A stretch of DNA of 64,000 nt, from positions 1,209-65,208 of the IMG/VR virus record IMGVR_UViG_3300047160_005424; one strand, given 5' to 3'. Each line of letters begins with the position of its first letter. Positions within the stretch are counted from its first letter, which is position 1. Position numbers: made by a program. Below, in pieces: positions 12,001 through 27,000 of this stretch. The stretch comes from a virus.

Positions 12001-15000
12001 CGTGGGAGCAATGGAAATATTGGTACTTGGCCCGTGGCACCTCTGAAGGTACCGGGTCGCCTATAGTACACAGGTCGCTGGCGCTGTAAATATCGAGATC
12101 TGGTATTTAGATAAAAGTCCCGCAAAAAGGGTTTTACATCGTGGCAGTTTTGAGGTAGAGGAGGAAGTGACACCTACCGGCCTGCATGGTTGAGCCCGCT
12201 GCCGACGTCCGTGGGCTCGGGTCTCGCCGCGCTATTACCGCAAGTCTGAAACGTCGGCGGGAGTGGCGAGACCCCTCCATTATCATAAGGAGACGCTCAT
12301 GACCGACGAAGTTGACAGACTCGCCGCAGAAGACGCGCCGCGAGCCACCACCGATCAGCTCCAGCAGGTTCGCGAGCTGGCCATCGCGGCTAAGACCAAA
12401 GAGCTGATGATCGCCGCCGCCCAGGAGAAGCTCAGAGATCTCGAGCAGGATCTCGACAGGATCACCTCGCGTCTCCTCCCGGAGCTCATGGACAAATCAG
12501 GTGTTTCCAGCGTCACCGTCGAGGCGATCGGAAACCAGCCGGCGTTCACGGTCAAGATCCACACCATGTATAGAGCCAACATCGGAGCCGACTGGGAGCC
12601 GGAGAGAAGGGCGGCGGCGTTCGCGTGGCTCGATGCCAACGGCCACGGCAGTCTCATAAAGACGGAAGTCACGACGTCGTTCGGCCGCCAGGATCGCGAC
12701 GAAGCCAAGGAGTTCATGAAGAGCGTCACCGCCATGGGCTACCAGTACACATCTAAAGAAGGCGTGCCGTGGAAGACGCTGTCTTCCTGGCTCAGGGAGA
12801 TGATCACCCACAGAGGCGTGACGCCTCCGCTAGACACCATCGGCGGCTACGTCGAGCGCCAAGCCGTCATCAAAGACGAACCGAGGGAGTAGACATGACC
12901 AAGAGCACGAAAGAGCTGACCAAGCGCGAAGAGCAAGATCTGGCGATCAACGAAGAGCTCGAGGCCAAGCTCGAGCGCATGGCCCAGGAAGACGCCGGCC
13001 AGGGCGTCTCGAACCGCAGCGAAGACAAGTTCTACCCGCTGATGACGGTTCTCCAGCCGCTGTCGCCGCAAGTCGACGAGAACCACCAGGCTTACGTAAA
13101 CGGCGCCAAGGCAGGAGCCATCTGGCTCCGCAACTTCGAGACGCCGATCGTCAAGGGCACAGAAGGCATCGTGGTCCAGCCGATCATGATGTACGAAGAA
13201 TTTGTCGAGTGGGTTCCGCGCGAGCGCGGCGGCGGGATGGTGAGCCGCAGCTTCAAGCGCCATGCCAATGCCAGGTGCGTCGACAAAGCCACGAACCGGT
13301 GGAAGATCGGGGAAAACGAGCTTCGCGAAACTCGCATGTGGGTGGTCATCGTCTGGGTCGACAACGCCCCGGTGCCGTTCATCATCCCGTGCCAGGGCAC
13401 CCAGAACACGTTCGCCAGGCAGTGGAACACGATCATCGGCCAACAGTTCAACGCCAACGGCACGGTGACTCCGGCCTGGGGCAACCTCTGGCGCCTCACC
13501 ACCAAGCAGCGCACCAACTCGAAGGGAACCTGGTACGTGTTCACCTTCGAGCACGAGCAGAAGGTCCGCGACACGCCTACGTACATGGCTGGCCGCCAGC
13601 TCCACGCCGTCGTCAAAGAAGCTGTTGAGCAGGGCCGGGCGCTCAGCGAAGTCGCGGAGCAGGAAGAGGGAACTACAGACGAAGGCGCGATGTGATGAAC
13701 CTGGAGAAGCTCTTCGGAACTCTCTCTGGGCTCAGCGGCACGTACCGCTTCAGCAACGCGAAGCTGATCCACAGGGAAAGCGTGCTCGAGCACTTAGGAG
13801 GCGTGACGCTGACCTGCTACTTCATCTGGCACGAGATGCTGAGTCGCGACCCGATCCTCCTCGAAGATGTGCCGCTTTCCGAGGTTCTCGGGAAAGCCAT
13901 CGTCCACGACGTAGAAGAGCTTCTCATGGGCGACATCCCGCGGACTACGAAGTACTCGTCGACTGAGACGTTGATAAATTTTCATCTCATGGAAGAAAAC
14001 GCTGTCGCCAAGATCCATCAGTCGCTCGAGATCAATAGCCGAGCGATGATCTTGGATCACTACAACGCCAAGAAGGATCTCAGCGGCTTGATCGTGAAGA
14101 TCGCAGACGCTCTTGCCGTGGTGTACAAGATCCACGAAGAAGCCGTCGAGAGAGGAAATCGCGCGATGCTGAGCCGCGCCACGTCGATCATCGATCAGCT
14201 CGATCACTGTTCCAAAGAGGTACAGAAGACAGAGCTCTCTGATGACTGCAAGGCGTTTCTCAAAGTGGTGATAGCCGAGGCCTACGACATCGTGATGCGG
14301 GCCGAGGACAGCACGGCAGCTATAAGGGAGGAATAATGTTATTTATCCCTCCATTTACAAACTCGAAGGGATGGCCTATGTTAGGACTGCCAGCCCTGTT
14401 AGCGGCTCCACCATTTTACTTTATCCTTGAACTGTGATAATGAGACTTGATGGCTCGCAGATCAAGAAGTCTTGTTCCTGTTAGACCGGGACACGTTTCG
14501 TTCTTCGATACAGCGCGTCGCGCCCTCACCGAGGCCAAGACGTTGAAAGAGGTAAAGGACATCGTCGATCTGGCAGTTGCTGCAAAAGAATATGCCAGGC
14601 GCGCTAGCGATCGTGAGATGATGGGCGACGCCTCGGATCTTCAGTTCGATGCCTCGGTGGCCTTGGGCCAGAAGCTGCCAGATGTGGGGCTTGAACGTCG
14701 AGGTCGGTCATCGGCAAGTGACCCACCTCGTCTCTCCCTTCGTGACCTAGGGATCACCAAGAACTTCTCCAGTCGCTGCCAACGGATAGCGCGTCTTCCG
14801 CTGGAGGCTCGAGACAGAATGAAGAAGGATCTTCGCGACAAAGCGACACGAAGGTTTGCCACTCACGAGCCAGGTCGCGCTCTCACCGTGCCTACCATCA
14901 ACGTCAATCAGTTCGCCAACATGATCATGAGCAACCTCGAAGACAAGATCTTCAAGCTCGTCGAGAGCAGGAAGATGGAGAGCCTGATCGGGATGCGTCA

Positions 15001-24000: not shown

Positions 24001-27000
24001 AGATCCGATAGCCAGCAGGATCGACGATCTCATAGTGTACCTCGTTCTCATGCGAGCCGTCATCGATGAGCGACGGAGATTTGAGAAAAATATTTCGGCT
24101 GAACCTTCCGAAGTTTGACTGGCTCGCAGTCGAGACGGGAGCGACTAGTCGCGGCGTTCCTGACTCCAACTTCTGCTACAAAGGAAGAGAAGGCTGGGTC
24201 GAGATGAAGCGAGCCAAAGGGCTCCGCGTCTCGGTGAGCCCTGAGCAAGTGGCGTGGGCCGAGCGTCGCATCAGGCACGGCGGCCGCGTGTTCTGCGCCG
24301 TGCGGAAGATTGGAATTCTCTATCTCTACAACAGCTGGGCCTTGCGACGCCTCGCCTCTGAGCCAATCGGTGACGTGGAGAGCGTCGGCCACTGGTCCGG
24401 TGGCCAATCCCGCTGGGACTGGGAGGCTATAGGGGCGATCCTGACAAGCTAGGAAGACGCCATGGCGTCATGGTCCTTCCCAAAGTCTTCCCAAAGTCTT
24501 CCCAAAGTCGCCTTCTGCCAGGATTCTCGAGACCCTTAAAAATCGCAAAGCGTTGAAAACAAACAACTTCTTGCGATTCCAGATCCATGTTCAATTGACA
24601 AGCTATTGATTCTTCAGCATAAAAATTTTTATCTTTACACTATTTACTTCCACGTCGGGACAGCCTATATAAAGACCCGAGGAGCACCTGCCCTCGCCCT
24701 CGGGCAGGCCTAGCAAGGTTAGGGGCGGTAAAACAAAGAACCCAAATTCGGAGAAGTGACATGACAGAAGCTTTCACCACAGAGCGTCAGACCACCGCCC
24801 AGCTGTTCAATGACGTGCTGCGTCATACTGACACGAACTGGTCGCCCTACCGCCAGATGACTGCCAACGTGTTCAACGCCTATTACACTCGCGCGCTGAC
24901 CGTAGAGCAGATCGACGGAGTGGCCCGCGCGATCGACGGCCTCCCTCAGGACTCCAGCCTTCAAGATGCTCTCAGCTTCTTCGTCCGTAAGAAGGTGCTG
25001 CGGTCCCGGACCGAGCGCGGCAAGCGTTTCTACGAAGTCAACTACTAACATATAAAAATCGGAGAAAATAAGATGACCCGCACAGACGTTCATCGCCCCA
25101 GCGCGATCAATACCGCAGATTACTCGTTCGTCGCGTTCGAGTGCATCCGCGTGGACGGCCTCGAGGCTTGCCAGATCCAGCTCGACAACCGGGCCCGCAT
25201 CCGCTCCCACATGGAGCGGACCGGCGGCAGCTACTCGACCCACGCCCACGGCGGCAACTGCATGGTCTGCGGTAACGCCAACGCGATCTACACCGCCCTG
25301 TTCCACCACGAGCCTTCGAACACCTACGTTCGCATGGGCAGCGAGTGCACAGAGAAGGTCGACATGCAGCTCGACCGGGTGGCCTTCCACAAGTTCAAAG
25401 ACGGCATCTATCAGTGGCGCGAAGCCCAAGCTGGGAAGCGCAAGGCTGAGGCGGCGCTCGCGGAGCGCGGCCTCTCCGGAGCCTGGGCTATCTTCACCGC
25501 GACCGCCACCGTCGGCGAGCCGTTCGAAGAGCGAACCACCCGCGACATCGTCGGGAAGTTCTGCCGCTACGGATCGATCAGCGAGAAGCAGTTCGCTTTC
25601 CTCGGCCGGCTGCTGCGTCAGATCGACGAGCGAAGCCAGACCCAGGAGCGACGCAGCGCGGAGCAAGCCGCCGCGACTCCGATCCCTGACGCCATGCTGC
25701 AGGGTCGCGTCGTGATCCGCGGTGAAGTCGTCTCCTTCAAGACAGTTGACTCGCCGTTCGGCCGCTCACGGAAGATGCTGATCAAGCATCAGGACGGCTG
25801 GAAGGTGTGGGGAACCGCACCCTCGAGCCTGGTGGCAGAGAAGGGCGACACCGTCGCGTTCGTGGCTAGCATAGAGCGAAGCCGCGAAGACGTGAAGTTC
25901 GGCTTCTTCTCGCGGCCGAGCCTCATCAACCAGGGCGCCGAGCGCCCCTCCAACTTCTGAGGAAGGATTAAGTGATGATAGCTACTAAGAATGACGAGCT
26001 TGCTTGGTCTCATATGTGTCAAACGCTTCGACTGTTTGGTCATATGAAAGACTTTTCGAAGTCTGAGTGCTTGCGCGTCGCCAAGCTTCTGCAATCCAAG
26101 GTCAAGAATGGCAATGTCACGCGCGTGAGCCGTGGTCGCTATAAGGCCAATTGGAGCCGGAGGAAGGGCAGGTGACCAGAGTTTGCCCCGACTGGAACGG
26201 GGCCGGGAGAGTAACGCGGCGTCTGTCACAAGTTGCCCAACGCTGAGCGACTCTCCCGTCAACTATCAAACTGAAAATGAACCAACTAACGGGCCTTTGC
26301 CCAGGAGTAAATGAAAATGAAGAAGACCATTCTTACAGCTGCGCTTCTCGCCGCGAGCGCTCTTTCAGCTCAAGCACAGACGCATCCGCTGCCCGCATGC
26401 AACGATCCAGCGGTGAAAACCACGTTCCTCAACATGGTGCAACCGGCCAGCTTCTATGAGCTGAAAGACTGGCAAGGCGCCAGCAACAACGGCGACAAAC
26501 ATTGGTGCTACGCTTACTTTGCCGGCGGCACAGGTCTCGGCGTGCCATCCTTGCGGTCTCCGTTCATGGAAGCGGTGTTTACGCTGGAATGGGTCAACGA
26601 AAACGATGGCCGCTGGTGGTTGCAGATACGCAAAGCGGGCCAAAGCTGCCGCGGCGTGATGGGCAACCCGCTCAGCAGAGAGCGATGCCAGCAATCGGAG
26701 CCGGACCCGGGTGGTCCTGGTTCATTCCGGGCCGATCCGGTTCGATCGGCGAGATCGCCGAACTGCTATCAGCATGCGACGAGCTGCACGCCAGAGCCGA
26801 TTGATCCCAATTGGCATCGCGAGTTCGACTGATCTGAAAAGATAAAAAATAAAGTCAAAAAAATGTCCACATCTAGGCAAAAATGTGATAGCGTCCTGGA
26901 GCGGGGCCGGGGGTGGCCCCCGCTCTCTCGTCAATCTGGGGCGCTGGGGAAAACACAATCATGACAATCAAGACTTCAGGCTACAAGTTCGTGTGCTCGA

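What the first reader, a model, noticed from the sequence alone, without database searches (positions are those of the whole stretch)
13692..24118. Nucleotide-pool remodelling cluster without PurZ: candidate undescribed DNA base modification
One operon carries an HD dNTPase-like protein, a divergent double ThyX, an unknown 172-aa ORF, an NDT/RCL-type N-glycosidase, a UDG-like protein, a DUF550 pyrophosphohydrolase, its own DnaQ and DnaE, and a DUF1599-like protein. HD plus DUF550 is the established DatZ/MazZ pairing of 2-aminoadenine phages, but no PurZ, ThyA-type hydroxymethylase or deazaguanine genes appear in the early region, which lies wholly inside the window. The inference is a different non-canonical nucleotide, likely a pyrimidine, made at precursor level and inserted by the phage DnaE.
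Basis: partly seen in the sequence, partly recalled or inferred. Interest (0 to 1): 0.78.

Follow-up and report, generated by a model that had tools for sequence, protein, structure and literature searches.

The report
Phage thymidine-replacement gene module (ThyX-like)
A soil phage carries, beside its own DNA polymerase, a tightly linked trio of enzymes (a doubled ThyX-like enzyme, an HD phosphatase and a deoxyribose-swapping enzyme) whose only cultured relatives include the three phages shown to replace much of their thymine with a bulky modified base, so it probably makes an unusual DNA pyrimidine, although extra ordinary thymidine is not ruled out.

Summary
The genes are there as described, and the complete 73.7-kb genome has no PurZ, ThyA, TGT, dUTPase or dCMP deaminase.

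The HD/DUF550 pairing is not what matters. In 82 related viral loci, DUF550 recurs in 1, the UDG-like gene in 3, the DUF1599-like gene in 2 and the 172-aa ORF in none.

The conserved core is a trio:
- a YfbR/DatZ-like HD phosphohydrolase;
- a 383-aa tandem ThyX-fold protein;
- a classical nucleoside 2-deoxyribosyltransferase (NDT).

NDT accompanies the ThyX-like gene in 82 of 82 loci. HD does so in all 76 loci not cut at a contig end. The trio spans a median of 2.1 kb, occurs in three gene orders, and usually sits next to DnaQ-DnaE.

Among 50,697 deposited phage genomes the ThyX-like family occurs in about ten records. These include SP-15, YerA41 and Carin-5, the three phages shown chemically to carry a pentyl-type linker with sugars on thymine C5. 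SP-15 and Carin-5 also keep a canonical thymidylate synthase, so the ThyX-like enzyme is probably not redundant.

Best reading (about 0.5): a precursor-level pathway for a C5-substituted deoxyuridine nucleotide, inserted by the phage DnaE. Main rival (about 0.3): ordinary dTMP supply and salvage.

SP-15 gp130 was already guessed to be a hydroxymethyl-dUMP synthase. This scan also found a similar module earlier in a gut phage (e1-1968948). No chemistry exists for this phage.

The parts
13692..14336 (+). HD phosphohydrolase, YfbR/DatZ-like. Core member 1 of the trio.
   Evidence: Pfam YfbR-like 1.1e-16 and phrog_7076 1.9e-21. Best PDB matches are Lin2634 and YfbR 5'-deoxynucleotidase at about 1e-5. 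hhalign against S-2L DatZ gives E 6.7e-8, with DatZ W20/I22 replaced by F/Y20 and N/Q22. The metal ligands H34, H72-D73 and D139 are conserved in 58-60 of 60 homologues. The gene is present in 76 of 82 related loci, and the 6 exceptions are cut at the contig end.
14447..15993 (+). Two ORFs of unknown function (230 aa and 285 aa, the second with PQTQ repeats and low GC3). Not part of the conserved core.
   Evidence: No Pfam, PHROG or NCBIfam hit. GC3 is 0.61 and 0.50, against about 0.75 in neighbouring genes. Homologues occur only in the closest relative, L002.
15990..17141 (+). Tandem ThyX-fold protein ('ThyX-L', 383 aa). Core member 2 and the likely enzyme for chemistry at C5 of the pyrimidine.
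   Evidence: AF2 model pLDDT 89.7. The N-domain, residues 1-192, matches ThyX at Z 12.2. The C-domain's top 5 of 48,161 PDB representatives are all ThyX or PolB, Z 5.5-6.2. Twelve residues are invariant across 67 sequences, including cultured-phage members: W18, S21, R22, R58, W70, Q112, D113, R134, R276, W292, D320, R324. An RHR motif lies at 230-232, and four Cys (278, 310, 315, 334) are conserved only in the DnaE-phage clade. Homologues: YerA41 gp081 E 1.5e-45, SP-15 gp130 5e-13, Vibrio 150E35-1 P0192 7e-14.
17122..17640 (+). 172-aa ORF of unknown function. Not conserved.
   Evidence: No family hit. The ESM Atlas model is of low confidence and has no usable neighbour. Found in 0 of 82 related loci.
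17644..18087 (+). Nucleoside 2-deoxyribosyltransferase, classical NDT type. Core member 3.
   Evidence: PF05014 3.4e-14 and phrog_7995 3e-18. PDB NDTs 7o62 and 6evs match at about 1e-6, DNPH1 only at 0.77. The nucleophile Glu85 and the Y4-A6-P8-F9-F10 motif are invariant in 58-59 of 59 homologues. Present in 82 of 82 related loci.
18032..18484 (+). UDG-superfamily-like protein (150 aa). A lineage-specific accessory.
   Evidence: phrog_12275 3e-10. ESM Atlas feature score 0.93 and predicted-structure TM 0.62-0.71 to clusters that carry PF03167 UDG. Found in 3 of 82 related loci.
18481..18819 (+). DUF550 / MazZ-like all-alpha NTP pyrophosphohydrolase. A lineage-specific accessory.
   Evidence: PF04447 6.2e-21. 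hhalign against S-2L MazZ gives E 2e-5. Found in 1 of 82 related loci.
18825..19358 (+). DnaQ-like 3'-5' exonuclease.
   Evidence: PF00929 1.1e-12 and phrog_192 1.7e-29. Present in 69 of 82 related loci next to the trio.
19939..22974 (+). DnaE-type replicative polymerase (Pol III alpha), 1011 aa.
   Evidence: PF07733 1.4e-65, PF17657 1.3e-38, and PHP and HHH_6 domains. Present in 62 of 82 related loci. The nearest cultured relatives are a Vibrio podophage and the wifceviruses, at about 33% identity.
23774..24118 (+). DUF1599-like ('nucleotide modification associated domain 1') small protein. An accessory.
   Evidence: ESM Atlas feature score 0.96, with 223 shared features, to PF07659-bearing viral clusters; the Atlas entry starts at residue 41 of the ORF. 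phrog_6802 3e-9. The Pfam model is silent. Found in 2 of 82 related loci.

Best explanation
The region holds a conserved three-enzyme module next to the phage's own replicase (DnaQ and DnaE). The three enzymes are a YfbR/DatZ-like HD phosphohydrolase, a tandem ThyX-fold enzyme (ThyX-L) and a classical nucleoside 2-deoxyribosyltransferase (NDT). I propose that the module reshapes the deoxypyrimidine pool so that part of thymidine in phage DNA is replaced by a C5-substituted deoxyuridine. This would be the same kind of precursor-level thymidine replacement seen in phages SP-15, YerA41 and Carin-5.

Proposed steps, all inferred:
1. The HD enzyme strips phosphate from dTMP or dTTP, giving thymidine.
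2. The NDT swaps thymine for uracil or for a substituted uracil on the deoxyribose.
3. A host kinase re-phosphorylates the product.
4. ThyX-L carries out the chemistry at C5 of dUMP, adding hydroxymethyl or a longer group instead of plain methyl.
5. Host kinases make the triphosphate, and the phage DnaE/DnaQ incorporates it.

The DUF550, UDG-like and DUF1599-like genes would be optional housecleaning extras of this lineage.

What is shown: the folds, the family memberships, the gene linkage, and the phyletic association with hypermodified phages. What is inferred: the substrates, the product, and whether this phage's DNA is modified at all.
For: 1. Linkage. In 82 related loci (80 IMG/VR viral contigs and 2 metagenome contigs), with ThyX-L identity to the window protein of 27-63%, NDT is present in 82 of 82. 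HD is present in 76 of 82, and the 6 exceptions start within 330 nt of a contig end. The trio spans a median of 2.1 kb (1.9-4.9 kb). It occurs in three orders (37, 36 and 3 loci), with DnaE downstream in 50 loci and upstream in 9.

2. The same trio occurs in unrelated large phages that use other replicases. In Vibrio 150E35-1 and 1.031.O the three genes are contiguous. In phiXF1 ThyX-L and NDT are adjacent, with HD 8 kb away. In SP-15, NDT gp127 lies about 1 kb upstream of ThyX-L gp130, with two genes between them. Carin-5 has all three.

3. Among 50,697 phage records the ThyX-L family is found only in SP-15, Carin-5, GXN1, Va2, 1.031.O, 150E35-1, phiXF1, YerA41 and GN1. All three that have been analysed chemically carry a pentyl-type C5 linker with phosphate and sugars: YerA41 and Carin-5 on an estimated 70-75% of T (PMC12686479 section 24) and SP-15 on over half (PMC5977210).

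4. Non-redundancy. SP-15 also has a canonical ThyX (gp9, Thy1 4e-24) and Carin-5 a ThyA (7e-70), each beside its ThyX-L. YerA41 has no other thymidylate-synthase-like gene.

5. The enzymes look active. ThyX-L has 12 residues invariant across 67 sequences, six of them Arg, and keeps the ThyX D/E-x-x-R-x-x-L-P...T motif in the N-half and RHR in the C-half. The NDT nucleophile and the HD metal ligands are invariant or nearly so.

6. The residue that specifies the base in DatZ (I22) is polar here, N or Q, which suggests a different target base.

7. The genome has no dUTPase or dCMP deaminase, the usual dUMP suppliers, which leaves the HD plus NDT route as a possible source.

8. There is printed precedent for NDT-family enzymes converting a canonical into a modified deoxynucleotide in phages: DmtZ (PMC12884076) and NDT-M2 (bioRxiv 10.1101/2025.10.22.683976).
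Against: - There are no chemical data for this phage or for any member of its DnaE clade.
- The phage assembles from ordinary shotgun data in at least 19 soil metagenome studies. YerA41 and Carin-5 DNA resisted standard sequencing, so any modification here must be milder, partial or absent.
- No phage-encoded dNMP kinase, 5-hmdU DNA kinase, aGPT-Pplase or Tet/JBP appeared among 60 ORFs scanned with Pfam. A dedicated profile for the first three was not run, and the Tet/JBP control was silent.
- In this genome ThyX-L is the only thymidylate-synthase-like gene, so plain dTMP synthesis fits the data.
- The association with hypermodification rests on three characterised phages that are related to one another through their polymerases.
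- Similar 'ThyX-like cassette beside DnaE' claims from this scan were later marked down (e1-205676).
- The RHR motif is degraded in SP-15 and its relatives, so flavin chemistry is not assured across the family.
Confidence: 0.5

Rival explanations
1. Ordinary nucleotide supply. ThyX-L is merely a very divergent flavin-dependent thymidylate synthase that makes dTMP. The HD 5'-deoxynucleotidase and the NDT salvage and rebalance deoxynucleosides from degraded host DNA. DUF550 and DUF1599 do housecleaning. The DNA is plain A, C, G and T.
For: ThyX-L is the only thymidylate-synthase-like gene in this genome and in 26 related long contigs, which have 0 ThyA. Many phages carry a thymidylate synthase purely for supply. 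The HD protein's nearest solved relatives are 5'-deoxynucleotidases, and the NDT is of the classical salvage type. The phage sequences normally from soil shotgun data. A later check of comparable cassettes in this scan judged that 'plain dTMP-making reading fits'.
Against: SP-15 and Carin-5 keep a canonical ThyX or ThyA in addition to ThyX-L, which argues against a redundant dTMP synthase. The family is missing from all but about ten of 50,697 phage records, although thymidylate synthases are common in phages, and those records include every SP-15-type hypermodified phage analysed chemically. A nucleotidase that destroys dNMPs, strictly linked to a dTMP synthase, makes little sense for supply. 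The protein falls below the Pfam Thy1 threshold and has no HMM-level similarity to any solved ThyX.
Confidence: 0.3
2. Counter-defence through the nucleotide pool. The module does not change the phage DNA. Instead it restores or reshapes dNTP pools against host defences that deplete or corrupt them (dCTP deaminase, dGTPase, dUTP flooding), or it starves the host.
For: The HD, MazG-like (DUF550, DUF1599-like) and UDG-like genes are all 'sanitising' activities placed beside the replicase. Misincorporated dU as a consequence of host deaminase defence is discussed for related phages (PMC13697223).
Against: The conserved core is HD, ThyX-L and NDT, not the sanitising extras, which recur in only 1-3 of 82 loci. 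Nothing links ThyX-fold enzymes to any counter-defence role. The association with chemically modified genomes would be left unexplained.
Confidence: 0.08
3. A 2-aminoadenine (Z) genome made without PurZ. The DatZ-like HD, MazZ-like DUF550 and NDT would deplete dA and install diaminopurine by base swapping.
For: HD, DUF550 and NDT domains were all enriched in restriction-resistant 'dZ' contigs (bioRxiv 10.1101/2025.10.22.683976). NDT-family DmtZ makes dZMP from dAMP and the Z base (PMC12884076).
Against: There is no PurZ in this complete genome or in 26 related contigs, 12 of them at least 90% complete, so there is no source of the Z base. DatZ's adenine-specifying I22 is replaced. DUF550 is not conserved with the module. 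The invariant partner is a ThyX-fold, pyrimidine-type enzyme. The NDT is the nucleoside type, unlike the DNPH1-like DmtZ.
Confidence: 0.03

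Closest known systems
SP-15 gp130 / YerA41 gp081 (QSM00782.1) / Carin-5 'putative thymidylate synthase': the ThyX-derived proteins of phages with pentyl-linker, glycosylated thymidine
   Same: Same protein family over nearly the full length: A1 profile E 1e-70 for YerA41, 1.5e-21 for SP-15 and 1.9e-20 for Carin-5; hhalign E 1.5e-45 for YerA41 and 5e-13 for SP-15. The same partners occur in those genomes: a YfbR-like HD in all three and an NDT in SP-15 and Carin-5. Kropinski et al. 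2018 hypothesised that gp130 is the hydroxymethyl-dUMP synthase, and the Carin-5 paper lists these proteins as the thymidylate synthase needed for 5hmdUMP.
   Different: Those phages are 145-222 kb myoviruses with a UDG-fused family-A polymerase and large glycosyltransferase clusters near the polymerase. This one is a 74-kb soil myovirus with DnaE and DnaQ. The four-Cys cluster is present here and absent there. This phage has no dCTP or dCMP deaminase and no dUTPase. Its DNA sequences normally, whereas YerA41 and Carin-5 DNA does not. No function has been shown experimentally for any family member.
Flavin-dependent thymidylate synthase ThyX (T. maritima TM0449) and the UMP/dUMP methylase PolB
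   Same: Same fold in both halves: Z 12.2 for the N-domain and Z 5.5-6.2 for the C-domain. The D/E-x-x-R-x-x-L-P...T motif is kept in the N-half and RHR in the C-half.
   Different: It is a single chain with two unequal ThyX domains rather than a homotetramer of one domain. There is no HMM-level similarity to solved ThyX, and it falls below the Pfam gathering score. No internal sequence repeat is detectable. The position that I align by eye with ThyX R174 (numbering from memory) is Phe143; this Phe is invariant in the 32-sequence alignment A1 but not in the wider 67-sequence set. A C-terminal Cys-rich extension is present.
Z-genome cluster PurZ-DatZ-MazZ of cyanophage S-2L and relatives
   Same: An HD homologous to DatZ (E 6.7e-8) and a MazZ-like DUF550 (E 2e-5) lie beside a phage replicase. 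The logic is the same: remove a canonical nucleotide while supplying a substitute.
   Different: PurZ is absent. DatZ's specificity residues differ. DUF550 is not conserved with the module. The synthetic enzyme is ThyX-like, so the target is a pyrimidine.
DmtZ and NDT-M2: NDT-family enzymes of Z phages that move deoxyribose or deoxyribose-5-phosphate from dA or dAMP to another base
   Same: An NDT-family enzyme is recruited by a phage to convert a canonical deoxynucleoside or deoxynucleotide into another one. It is paired with a YfbR/DatZ-like HD.
   Different: The NDT here is the classical nucleoside type, with the YxAxPFF N-terminus and best PDB hits to NDTs rather than DNPH1. Its substrates are unknown, and its genomic partner is a pyrimidine C5 enzyme.
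Post-replicative thymidine hypermodification from 5-hmdU (ViI, M6, PaMx11, SP10, PhiW-14; Lee et al. 2018 and 2021)
   Same: Thymidine is replaced through a C5-modified dUMP that is made before replication and incorporated by the phage polymerase.
   Different: Those pathways use a ThyA-type dUMP hydroxymethylase together with 5-HMUDK and aGPT-Pplase. There is no ThyA here, and no such kinase or transferase appeared among 60 ORFs scanned.

Membership tests
Z-genome (2-aminoadenine) biosynthesis cluster | PurZ (a PurA-like adenylosuccinate synthetase homologue, PF00709) encoded by the phage | tested here: not met
   There is no PF00709 match in the complete 73,659-bp genome, while the control rang in 14 of 14 genomes. 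None was found in 26 related contigs either.
Z-genome (2-aminoadenine) biosynthesis cluster | DatZ: an HD dATP triphosphohydrolase with specificity residues W20 and I22 | tested here: not met
   The HD protein is homologous to DatZ (hhalign E 6.7e-8), but the aligned positions are F20 and N22. In the wider family they are Y/F20 and mostly Q22. It is nearer to YfbR in the PDB, where DatZ is not hit at E<1.
Z-genome (2-aminoadenine) biosynthesis cluster | MazZ-like (d)NTP pyrophosphohydrolase | tested here: met
   PF04447 6.2e-21 and hhalign against S-2L MazZ E 2e-5. It is, however, present in only 1 of 82 related loci.
Flavin-dependent thymidylate synthase ThyX (Pfam Thy1, PF02511) | Scores above the Pfam gathering threshold for Thy1 | tested here: not met
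   18.5 bits against a cut-off of 24.8. phmmer and a family profile find no PDB ThyX.
Flavin-dependent thymidylate synthase ThyX (Pfam Thy1, PF02511) | ThyX fold | tested here: met
   N-domain Z 12.2, 180 residues, rmsd 3.2; Foldseek probability 1.0. The C-domain alone has all of its top 5 among 48,161 chains as ThyX or PolB.
Flavin-dependent thymidylate synthase ThyX (Pfam Thy1, PF02511) | Complete ThyX catalytic motif set (RHR...S-x-R-Y, E-x-x-R-x-x-L-P, R174) within one domain, and dUMP-to-dTMP activity | tested here: inconclusive
   The motifs are split between the halves: D113-x-x-R116...L119-P120...T125 in the N-half and R230-H231-R232 in the C-half. The position aligned by eye with R174 is F143. 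Residue mapping rests on a weak hhalign match (E 0.012) and on remembered T. maritima numbering. Enzyme activity cannot be tested here.
SP-15 / YerA41 / Carin-5 type thymidine hypermodification (C5 pentyl-type linker with phosphate and sugars) | A ThyX-L family protein (gp130 / gp081 type) | tested here: met
   The A1 profile hits exactly one gene in each of YerA41, SP-15, Carin-5, phiXF1 and Vibrio 150E35-1, with E values from 1e-17 to 5e-83.
SP-15 / YerA41 / Carin-5 type thymidine hypermodification (C5 pentyl-type linker with phosphate and sugars) | Accompanying YfbR-like HD and NDT genes | tested here: met
   tblastn hits for HD and NDT among 50,697 phages fall largely in this set. HD: SP-15, Carin-5, YerA41/GN1, LIS04, GXN1, phiXF1, the Vibrio phages, plus Bacillus HSE3. 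NDT: SP-15, Carin-5, LIS04, phiXF1, the Vibrio phages, plus Geobacillus GR1. No NDT was detected in YerA41 at E<=1e-3.
SP-15 / YerA41 / Carin-5 type thymidine hypermodification (C5 pentyl-type linker with phosphate and sugars) | UDG-fused family-A DNA polymerase that tolerates the bulky base | tested here: not met
   The replicase here is DnaE plus DnaQ, with a separate small UDG-like protein.
SP-15 / YerA41 / Carin-5 type thymidine hypermodification (C5 pentyl-type linker with phosphate and sugars) | A phage-encoded dUMP supply (dCTP deaminase, dUTPase or dCMP deaminase) | tested here: not met
   No PF00692 or PF00383 match in the whole genome. A profile specific to dCTP deaminase was not run.
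SP-15 / YerA41 / Carin-5 type thymidine hypermodification (C5 pentyl-type linker with phosphate and sugars) | Hypermodified thymidine actually present in virion DNA | not testable with these tools
   This needs nucleoside LC-MS/MS or single-molecule sequencing kinetics. The only indirect hint is that the phage assembles from ordinary Illumina soil metagenomes.
Nucleoside 2-deoxyribosyltransferase (PF05014) | Pfam match above threshold, with the catalytic Glu nucleophile | tested here: met
   53.4 bits against a cut-off of 28.8. Glu85 within D-x-G-T-x-W-E-x-G is invariant in 59 of 59 homologues.
5-hmdU-based post-replicative thymidine hypermodification (Lee et al.) | ThyA-type dUMP hydroxymethylase, 5-HMUDK kinase and aGPT-Pplase | tested here: not met
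   There is no PF00303 match. No kinase or aGPT-Pplase family appeared among 60 ORFs scanned with Pfam. Dedicated profiles for 5-HMUDK and aGPT-Pplase were not run.

The most novel reading that the evidence does not exclude
The HD, ThyX-L and NDT trio is itself the long-sought machinery that builds the five-carbon side chain of SP-15-type bases. The NDT-fold enzyme, which normally forms a covalent deoxyribosyl-enzyme intermediate, would hand a pentose-derived unit to C5 of dUMP after activation by the ThyX-fold enzyme, forming a C-C bond. Ring opening and reduction would then give a (di)hydroxypentyl-dUMP. This fits two old reports on SP-15, cited by title in PMC5977210: ribose label enters the dihydroxypentyl chain, and the base is made as a nucleoside triphosphate. 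On this reading, soil DnaE phages such as this one carry a minimal version of that pathway.
Probability: 0.1. Interest if true: 0.9.

Novelty: new variant of a known kind. Interest (0 to 1): 0.62.

Why it matters
How the pentyl-type side chain of SP-15, YerA41 and Carin-5 thymidine is made has been open since the 1970s. Only the ThyX-type gene has been named in print, and only as a guess.

This window shows that the gene travels as an almost inseparable trio with an HD phosphohydrolase and a deoxyribosyltransferase. The trio holds together across three gene orders, across unrelated replicases, and across 391 protein clusters at 50% identity. That yields a small candidate gene set that can be tested directly by expressing three genes and running LC-MS.

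It also suggests two wider points:
- Thymidine replacement may be common in 40-80 kb soil and aquatic DnaE phages that sequence normally and so go unnoticed.
- The NDT, YfbR-like, PolA and UDG signal reported for restriction-resistant 'dZ' viromes may partly come from T-modified phages. This is my inference.

If the ordinary reading is right instead, the result is still a new, structurally odd tandem thymidylate synthase.

Tried and rejected
- Internal duplication of ThyX-L at sequence level: hhalign of the N-half against the C-half found nothing. Only fold search supports the tandem architecture.
- Sequence-level link to solved ThyX: none was found with phmmer or a family profile. hhalign against SP-15 gp9 was weak, E 0.012, so residue mapping is tentative.
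- An SDR as a shared pathway member: an adh_short gene lies near the trio in 25 related loci, and SP-15 has 'FabG-like' gp129 beside gp130. The two are not similar (BLASTP E 14), such SDRs occur in 137 phage records, and this genome has none. I dropped this line.
- Rosetta-stone fusions: P0051 (596 aa) and P0130 (531 aa) carry N-terminal extensions. P0130's is a DUF559 endonuclease. P0051's matches nothing and looks like a gene-calling artefact, because 'MKITI' restarts at residue 236.
- The conserved 105-aa protein next to DnaQ in 68 related loci: it is not detectably related to DUF550 or to the DUF1599-like protein and is absent from this genome.
- Near-identical DNA in cultured phages: none.
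- Promoter and terminator scan: at background, so there is no operon evidence beyond gene spacing.
- Literature on DNA modification in phiXF1: nothing found. The Walker and Mandel 1978 papers are not held.
- Tet/JBP search: the control genomes were silent, so the negative result is uninformative.

Full report
**What is in the window**

The window is bases 1209-65208 of a 73,659-bp viral contig with direct terminal repeats, which CheckV rates 100% complete. It is a myovirus: it has a tail sheath, baseplate J, TerL and an HK97-type capsid. Near-identical sequence occurs in soil metagenomes from at least 19 studies.

The + strand block 12263-38777 holds the early genes.

| Coordinates | Gene | Evidence |
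|---|---|---|
| 13692-14336 | HD phosphohydrolase | Pfam YfbR-like 1.1e-16; phrog_7076 1.9e-21 |
| 14447-15139, 15136-15993 | two ORFs of unknown function | low GC3, no hits |
| 15990-17141 | 383-aa protein | sub-threshold Thy1 hit only |
| 17122-17640 | 172-aa ORF | no hits |
| 17644-18087 | NDT | PF05014 3.4e-14 |
| 18032-18484 | UDG-like protein | |
| 18481-18819 | DUF550 | PF04447 6e-21 |
| about 18825-19358 | DnaQ-like exonuclease | |
| 19939-22974 | DnaE | |
| about 23774-24118 | DUF1599-like protein | |

Most neighbouring genes overlap or abut. That fits a single operon, but the consensus promoter and terminator scans are at background.

The whole genome has no PurZ, ThyA, TGT, dUTPase or dCMP deaminase. 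The observation therefore stands, with three corrections:
- The 'double ThyX' is one two-domain protein, not two genes.
- The NDT is the classical type, not the Rcl type.
- The HD protein is nearer to YfbR than to DatZ.

**The ThyX-like protein (ThyX-L)**

ThyX-L has 46 word-indexed homologues, all metagenomic and unnamed. An exhaustive profile search finds 391 clusters at 50% identity among 1.84 billion representatives.

An AlphaFold model built on 32 sequences has pLDDT 89.7.
- Residues 1-192 superpose on T. maritima ThyX at Z 12.2 (180 residues, rmsd 3.2).
- The C-half, folded alone (pLDDT 88) and compared with 48,161 PDB representatives, has ThyX or PolB as its five best matches (Z 5.5-6.2). 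The next row is at Z 3.9.

The protein is thus a tandem of one good and one degenerate ThyX domain. No sequence repeat is detectable, and no HMM-level similarity to solved ThyX exists.

The motifs are split between the halves. The N-half keeps D113-x-x-R116-x-x-L119-P120...T125, and the C-half keeps R230-H231-R232. ThyX active sites are built from several subunits (established knowledge). A pseudo-dimer with complementary half-sites is therefore a reasonable picture of a working enzyme, but this is inference.

Across 67 distinct sequences, including cultured-phage members, twelve residues are invariant: W18, S21, R22, R58, W70, Q112, D113, R134, R276, W292, D320 and R324. Four cysteines (278, 310, 315, 334) are conserved only in the DnaE-phage clade and are replaced in YerA41, SP-15 and the Vibrio phages. 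They look like a structural metal site rather than part of the catalytic core.

**What is conserved around ThyX-L**

A scan of IMG/VR found 87 loci that encode the family, and 80 were kept. I searched those 80 plus two metagenome contigs with every early protein of the window.

| Window protein | Loci with a homologue (of 82) |
|---|---|
| NDT | 82 |
| HD | 76 |
| DnaQ | 69 |
| DnaE | 62 |
| UDG-like protein | 3 |
| DUF1599-like protein | 2 |
| DUF550 | 1 |
| 172-aa ORF | 0 |

The six loci without HD all begin within 330 nt of ThyX-L, so the gene has been cut off at the contig end.

The three core genes span a median of 2.1 kb. They occur as ThyX-L-NDT-HD in 37 loci, HD-ThyX-L-NDT in 36 and ThyX-L-HD-NDT in 3. 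DnaE lies downstream in 50 loci and upstream in 9. ThyX-L identity to the window protein falls as low as 27%.

So the unit is the trio, usually beside the replicase. None of 26 longer related contigs, 12 of them at least 90% complete, has PurZ or ThyA.

**Link to phages with known chemistry**

tblastn with three divergent family members against 50,697 phage records finds ThyX-L only in SP-15, Carin-5, Streptococcus GXN1, Vibrio Va2, 1.031.O and 150E35-1, Xanthomonas phiXF1, and Yersinia YerA41 and GN1. The family profile hits one gene in each of the five genomes tested.

The window's HD and NDT find largely the same short list. Gene arrangements in those genomes are:
- Vibrio 150E35-1: the three genes are contiguous.
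- phiXF1: ThyX-L and NDT are adjacent.
- SP-15: NDT gp127 lies about 1 kb upstream of ThyX-L gp130, with two genes between them.

The chemistry of the three characterised phages is as follows:
- YerA41 DNA carries an approximately 1-kDa substituent on thymidine (PMC9023294).
- Re-analysis gives a 104-Da linker in YerA41 and an 88-Da linker in Carin-5, with phosphate and hexoses, on 70-75% of T (PMC12686479).
- The authors liken this to SP-15's 5-(4',5'-dihydroxypentyl)uracil (PMC12686479).

YerA41 has no ThyA and no other Thy1-like gene. SP-15 has a canonical ThyX (gp9) and Carin-5 a ThyA in addition to ThyX-L. Two thymidylate-synthase-like enzymes in phages that make both dT and a substituted dU argue for two different products.

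Kropinski et al. already guessed that gp130 is a hydroxymethyl-dUMP synthase and reported that it had 'no homologs' (PMC5977210). The Carin-5 paper lists QSM00782.1 and its counterparts as the thymidylate synthase needed for 5hmdUMP. I found no paper that connects these proteins with the HD and NDT partners.

**The partner enzymes**

- HD is homologous to S-2L DatZ (hhalign E 6.7e-8). DatZ's sugar- and base-specifying residues W20 and I22 correspond to F20 and N22 here, and to Y/F20 and mostly Q22 across 60 homologues. The HD metal ligands are conserved.
- The best solved relatives of HD are 5'-deoxynucleotidases. Either a dNMP phosphatase or a DatZ-like triphosphohydrolase would release a deoxynucleoside.
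- A deoxynucleoside is the substrate of a classical NDT. The NDT here has the NDT-type N-terminus and an invariant Glu nucleophile, and its best PDB hits are NDTs, not DNPH1.
- Two recent papers show phage NDT-family enzymes converting a canonical deoxynucleoside or deoxynucleotide into a modified one in Z phages: NDT-M2 (bioRxiv 10.1101/2025.10.22.683976) and DmtZ (PMC12884076).
- By analogy, HD plus NDT could drain thymidine nucleotides and pass the deoxyribose to uracil or a substituted uracil. This would also supply the dUMP that the phage cannot make through dUTPase or dCMP deaminase. The assignment of these steps is inference.

**Weighing the explanations**

For a non-canonical pyrimidine:
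- the family's restricted distribution, which includes every chemically analysed SP-15-type phage;
- its coexistence with canonical thymidylate synthases;
- the strict linkage of a nucleotidase and a base-swapping enzyme to a C5 enzyme;
- the changed base-specificity residue in the HD protein.

Against it:
- No chemistry exists for this clade.
- The phage sequences normally, unlike YerA41 and Carin-5.
- No kinase or downstream tailoring enzymes were found in the early region.
- The three characterised phages are related to each other.
- Comparable claims for a different ThyX-like cassette beside DnaE were later marked down in this scan.

I put the modified-pyrimidine reading at about 0.5, ordinary dTMP supply and salvage at about 0.3, pool-level counter-defence at about 0.08 and a PurZ-less Z genome at about 0.03.

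**Earlier notes from this scan**

A first-reader note on the same window had already described the two halves of the ThyX-like protein (e1-5347551). My fold work confirms it.

A follow-up on a different genome, a gut phage (e1-1968948), reported a ThyX paralogue linked to NDT, a nucleotidase and a pyrophosphatase in over a hundred uncultured viruses, with the same closest-known family. I reached the present conclusions before reading that note, and I did not compare its sequences with this window's. It should count as the same idea found twice by similar agents, not as independent experimental support.

**Novelty and interest**

The kind of system is known: precursor-level thymidine replacement of the SP-15 type, with a ThyX-type candidate gene already in print. 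Four things are new here:
- the trio as a defined and nearly invariant unit;
- the tandem-ThyX architecture;
- a Cys-bearing subfamily;
- the spread of the module into 40-82 kb phages with DnaE replicases, in soil and other metagenomes, that nobody has examined chemically.

It turns an old open question, how the SP-15-type side chain is made, into a three-gene experiment.

Noticed in passing
window 30700-34268 (+): An Amidoligase_2 gene (30700-31749, 3e-37), an AIG2/GGACT-like gamma-glutamyl cyclotransferase (32016-32639) and a retropepsin-like aspartyl protease (33696-34268) sit together in the early block. The amidoligase and GGACT pair recurs in relative L002. Lee et al. 2021 note amidoligases of unknown role near thymidine-hypermodification genes.
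   Followed up: partly
window 45417-48515 (-), 2627-3805 (-), 4887-5429 (-): A GT9-like gene, an FkbM methyltransferase and a GT4 glycosyltransferase lie in the tail-fibre region. A TPR-GT9 and a SAM methyltransferase lie in the head operon. Because SP-15-type bases are glycosylated, these enzymes could decorate DNA rather than virion proteins. I did not test this.
   Followed up: partly
related loci, e.g. L058:8650-8967, L011:6845-7135: A protein of about 105 aa with no Pfam hit sits immediately upstream of DnaQ in 68 of 83 loci (the 82 related loci plus the window itself). It is absent from this genome, where the DUF550 gene occupies the same position. No homology between the two was detectable.
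   Followed up: partly
related loci, e.g. L022:2495-3151, L079:11492-11944, L041:5671-6153: Many relatives carry extra genes between the trio and DnaQ: a short-chain dehydrogenase (25 loci, often with an unknown 154-aa protein), a HAD/PNKP-type phosphatase (16 loci) and a T4 endoV-like pyrimidine-dimer glycosylase (23 loci). None is present in this genome.
   Followed up: partly
L001:20854-21185 (DnaE of a 72-kb relative): The DnaE of this relative is annotated with an intein-splicing domain and is 1178 aa long.
   Followed up: no
P0130 residues 1-160; YerA41 gp080 (L003:7181-7945): A DUF559-type endonuclease is fused to ThyX-L in P0130 and lies directly upstream of it in YerA41. This hints at a homing-endonuclease association with the gene.
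   Followed up: no
literature: bioRxiv 10.1101/2025.10.22.683976: In that restriction-resistance virome study, NDT co-occurred with YfbR-like HD, DNA pol A and UDG domains but did not colocalise with PurZ, and one purified NDT had no purine activity. SP-15-type T-modified phages (UDG-fused PolA, HD, NDT) would give exactly this signal and may be a confounder.
   Followed up: no
window 14447-15993 (+): Two ORFs between HD and ThyX-L have clearly lower GC3 (0.61 and 0.50) than their neighbours (about 0.75-0.79). The second carries a PQTQPQTQ repeat. They are shared only with the closest relative and look like a recent insertion that splits the trio.
   Followed up: partly
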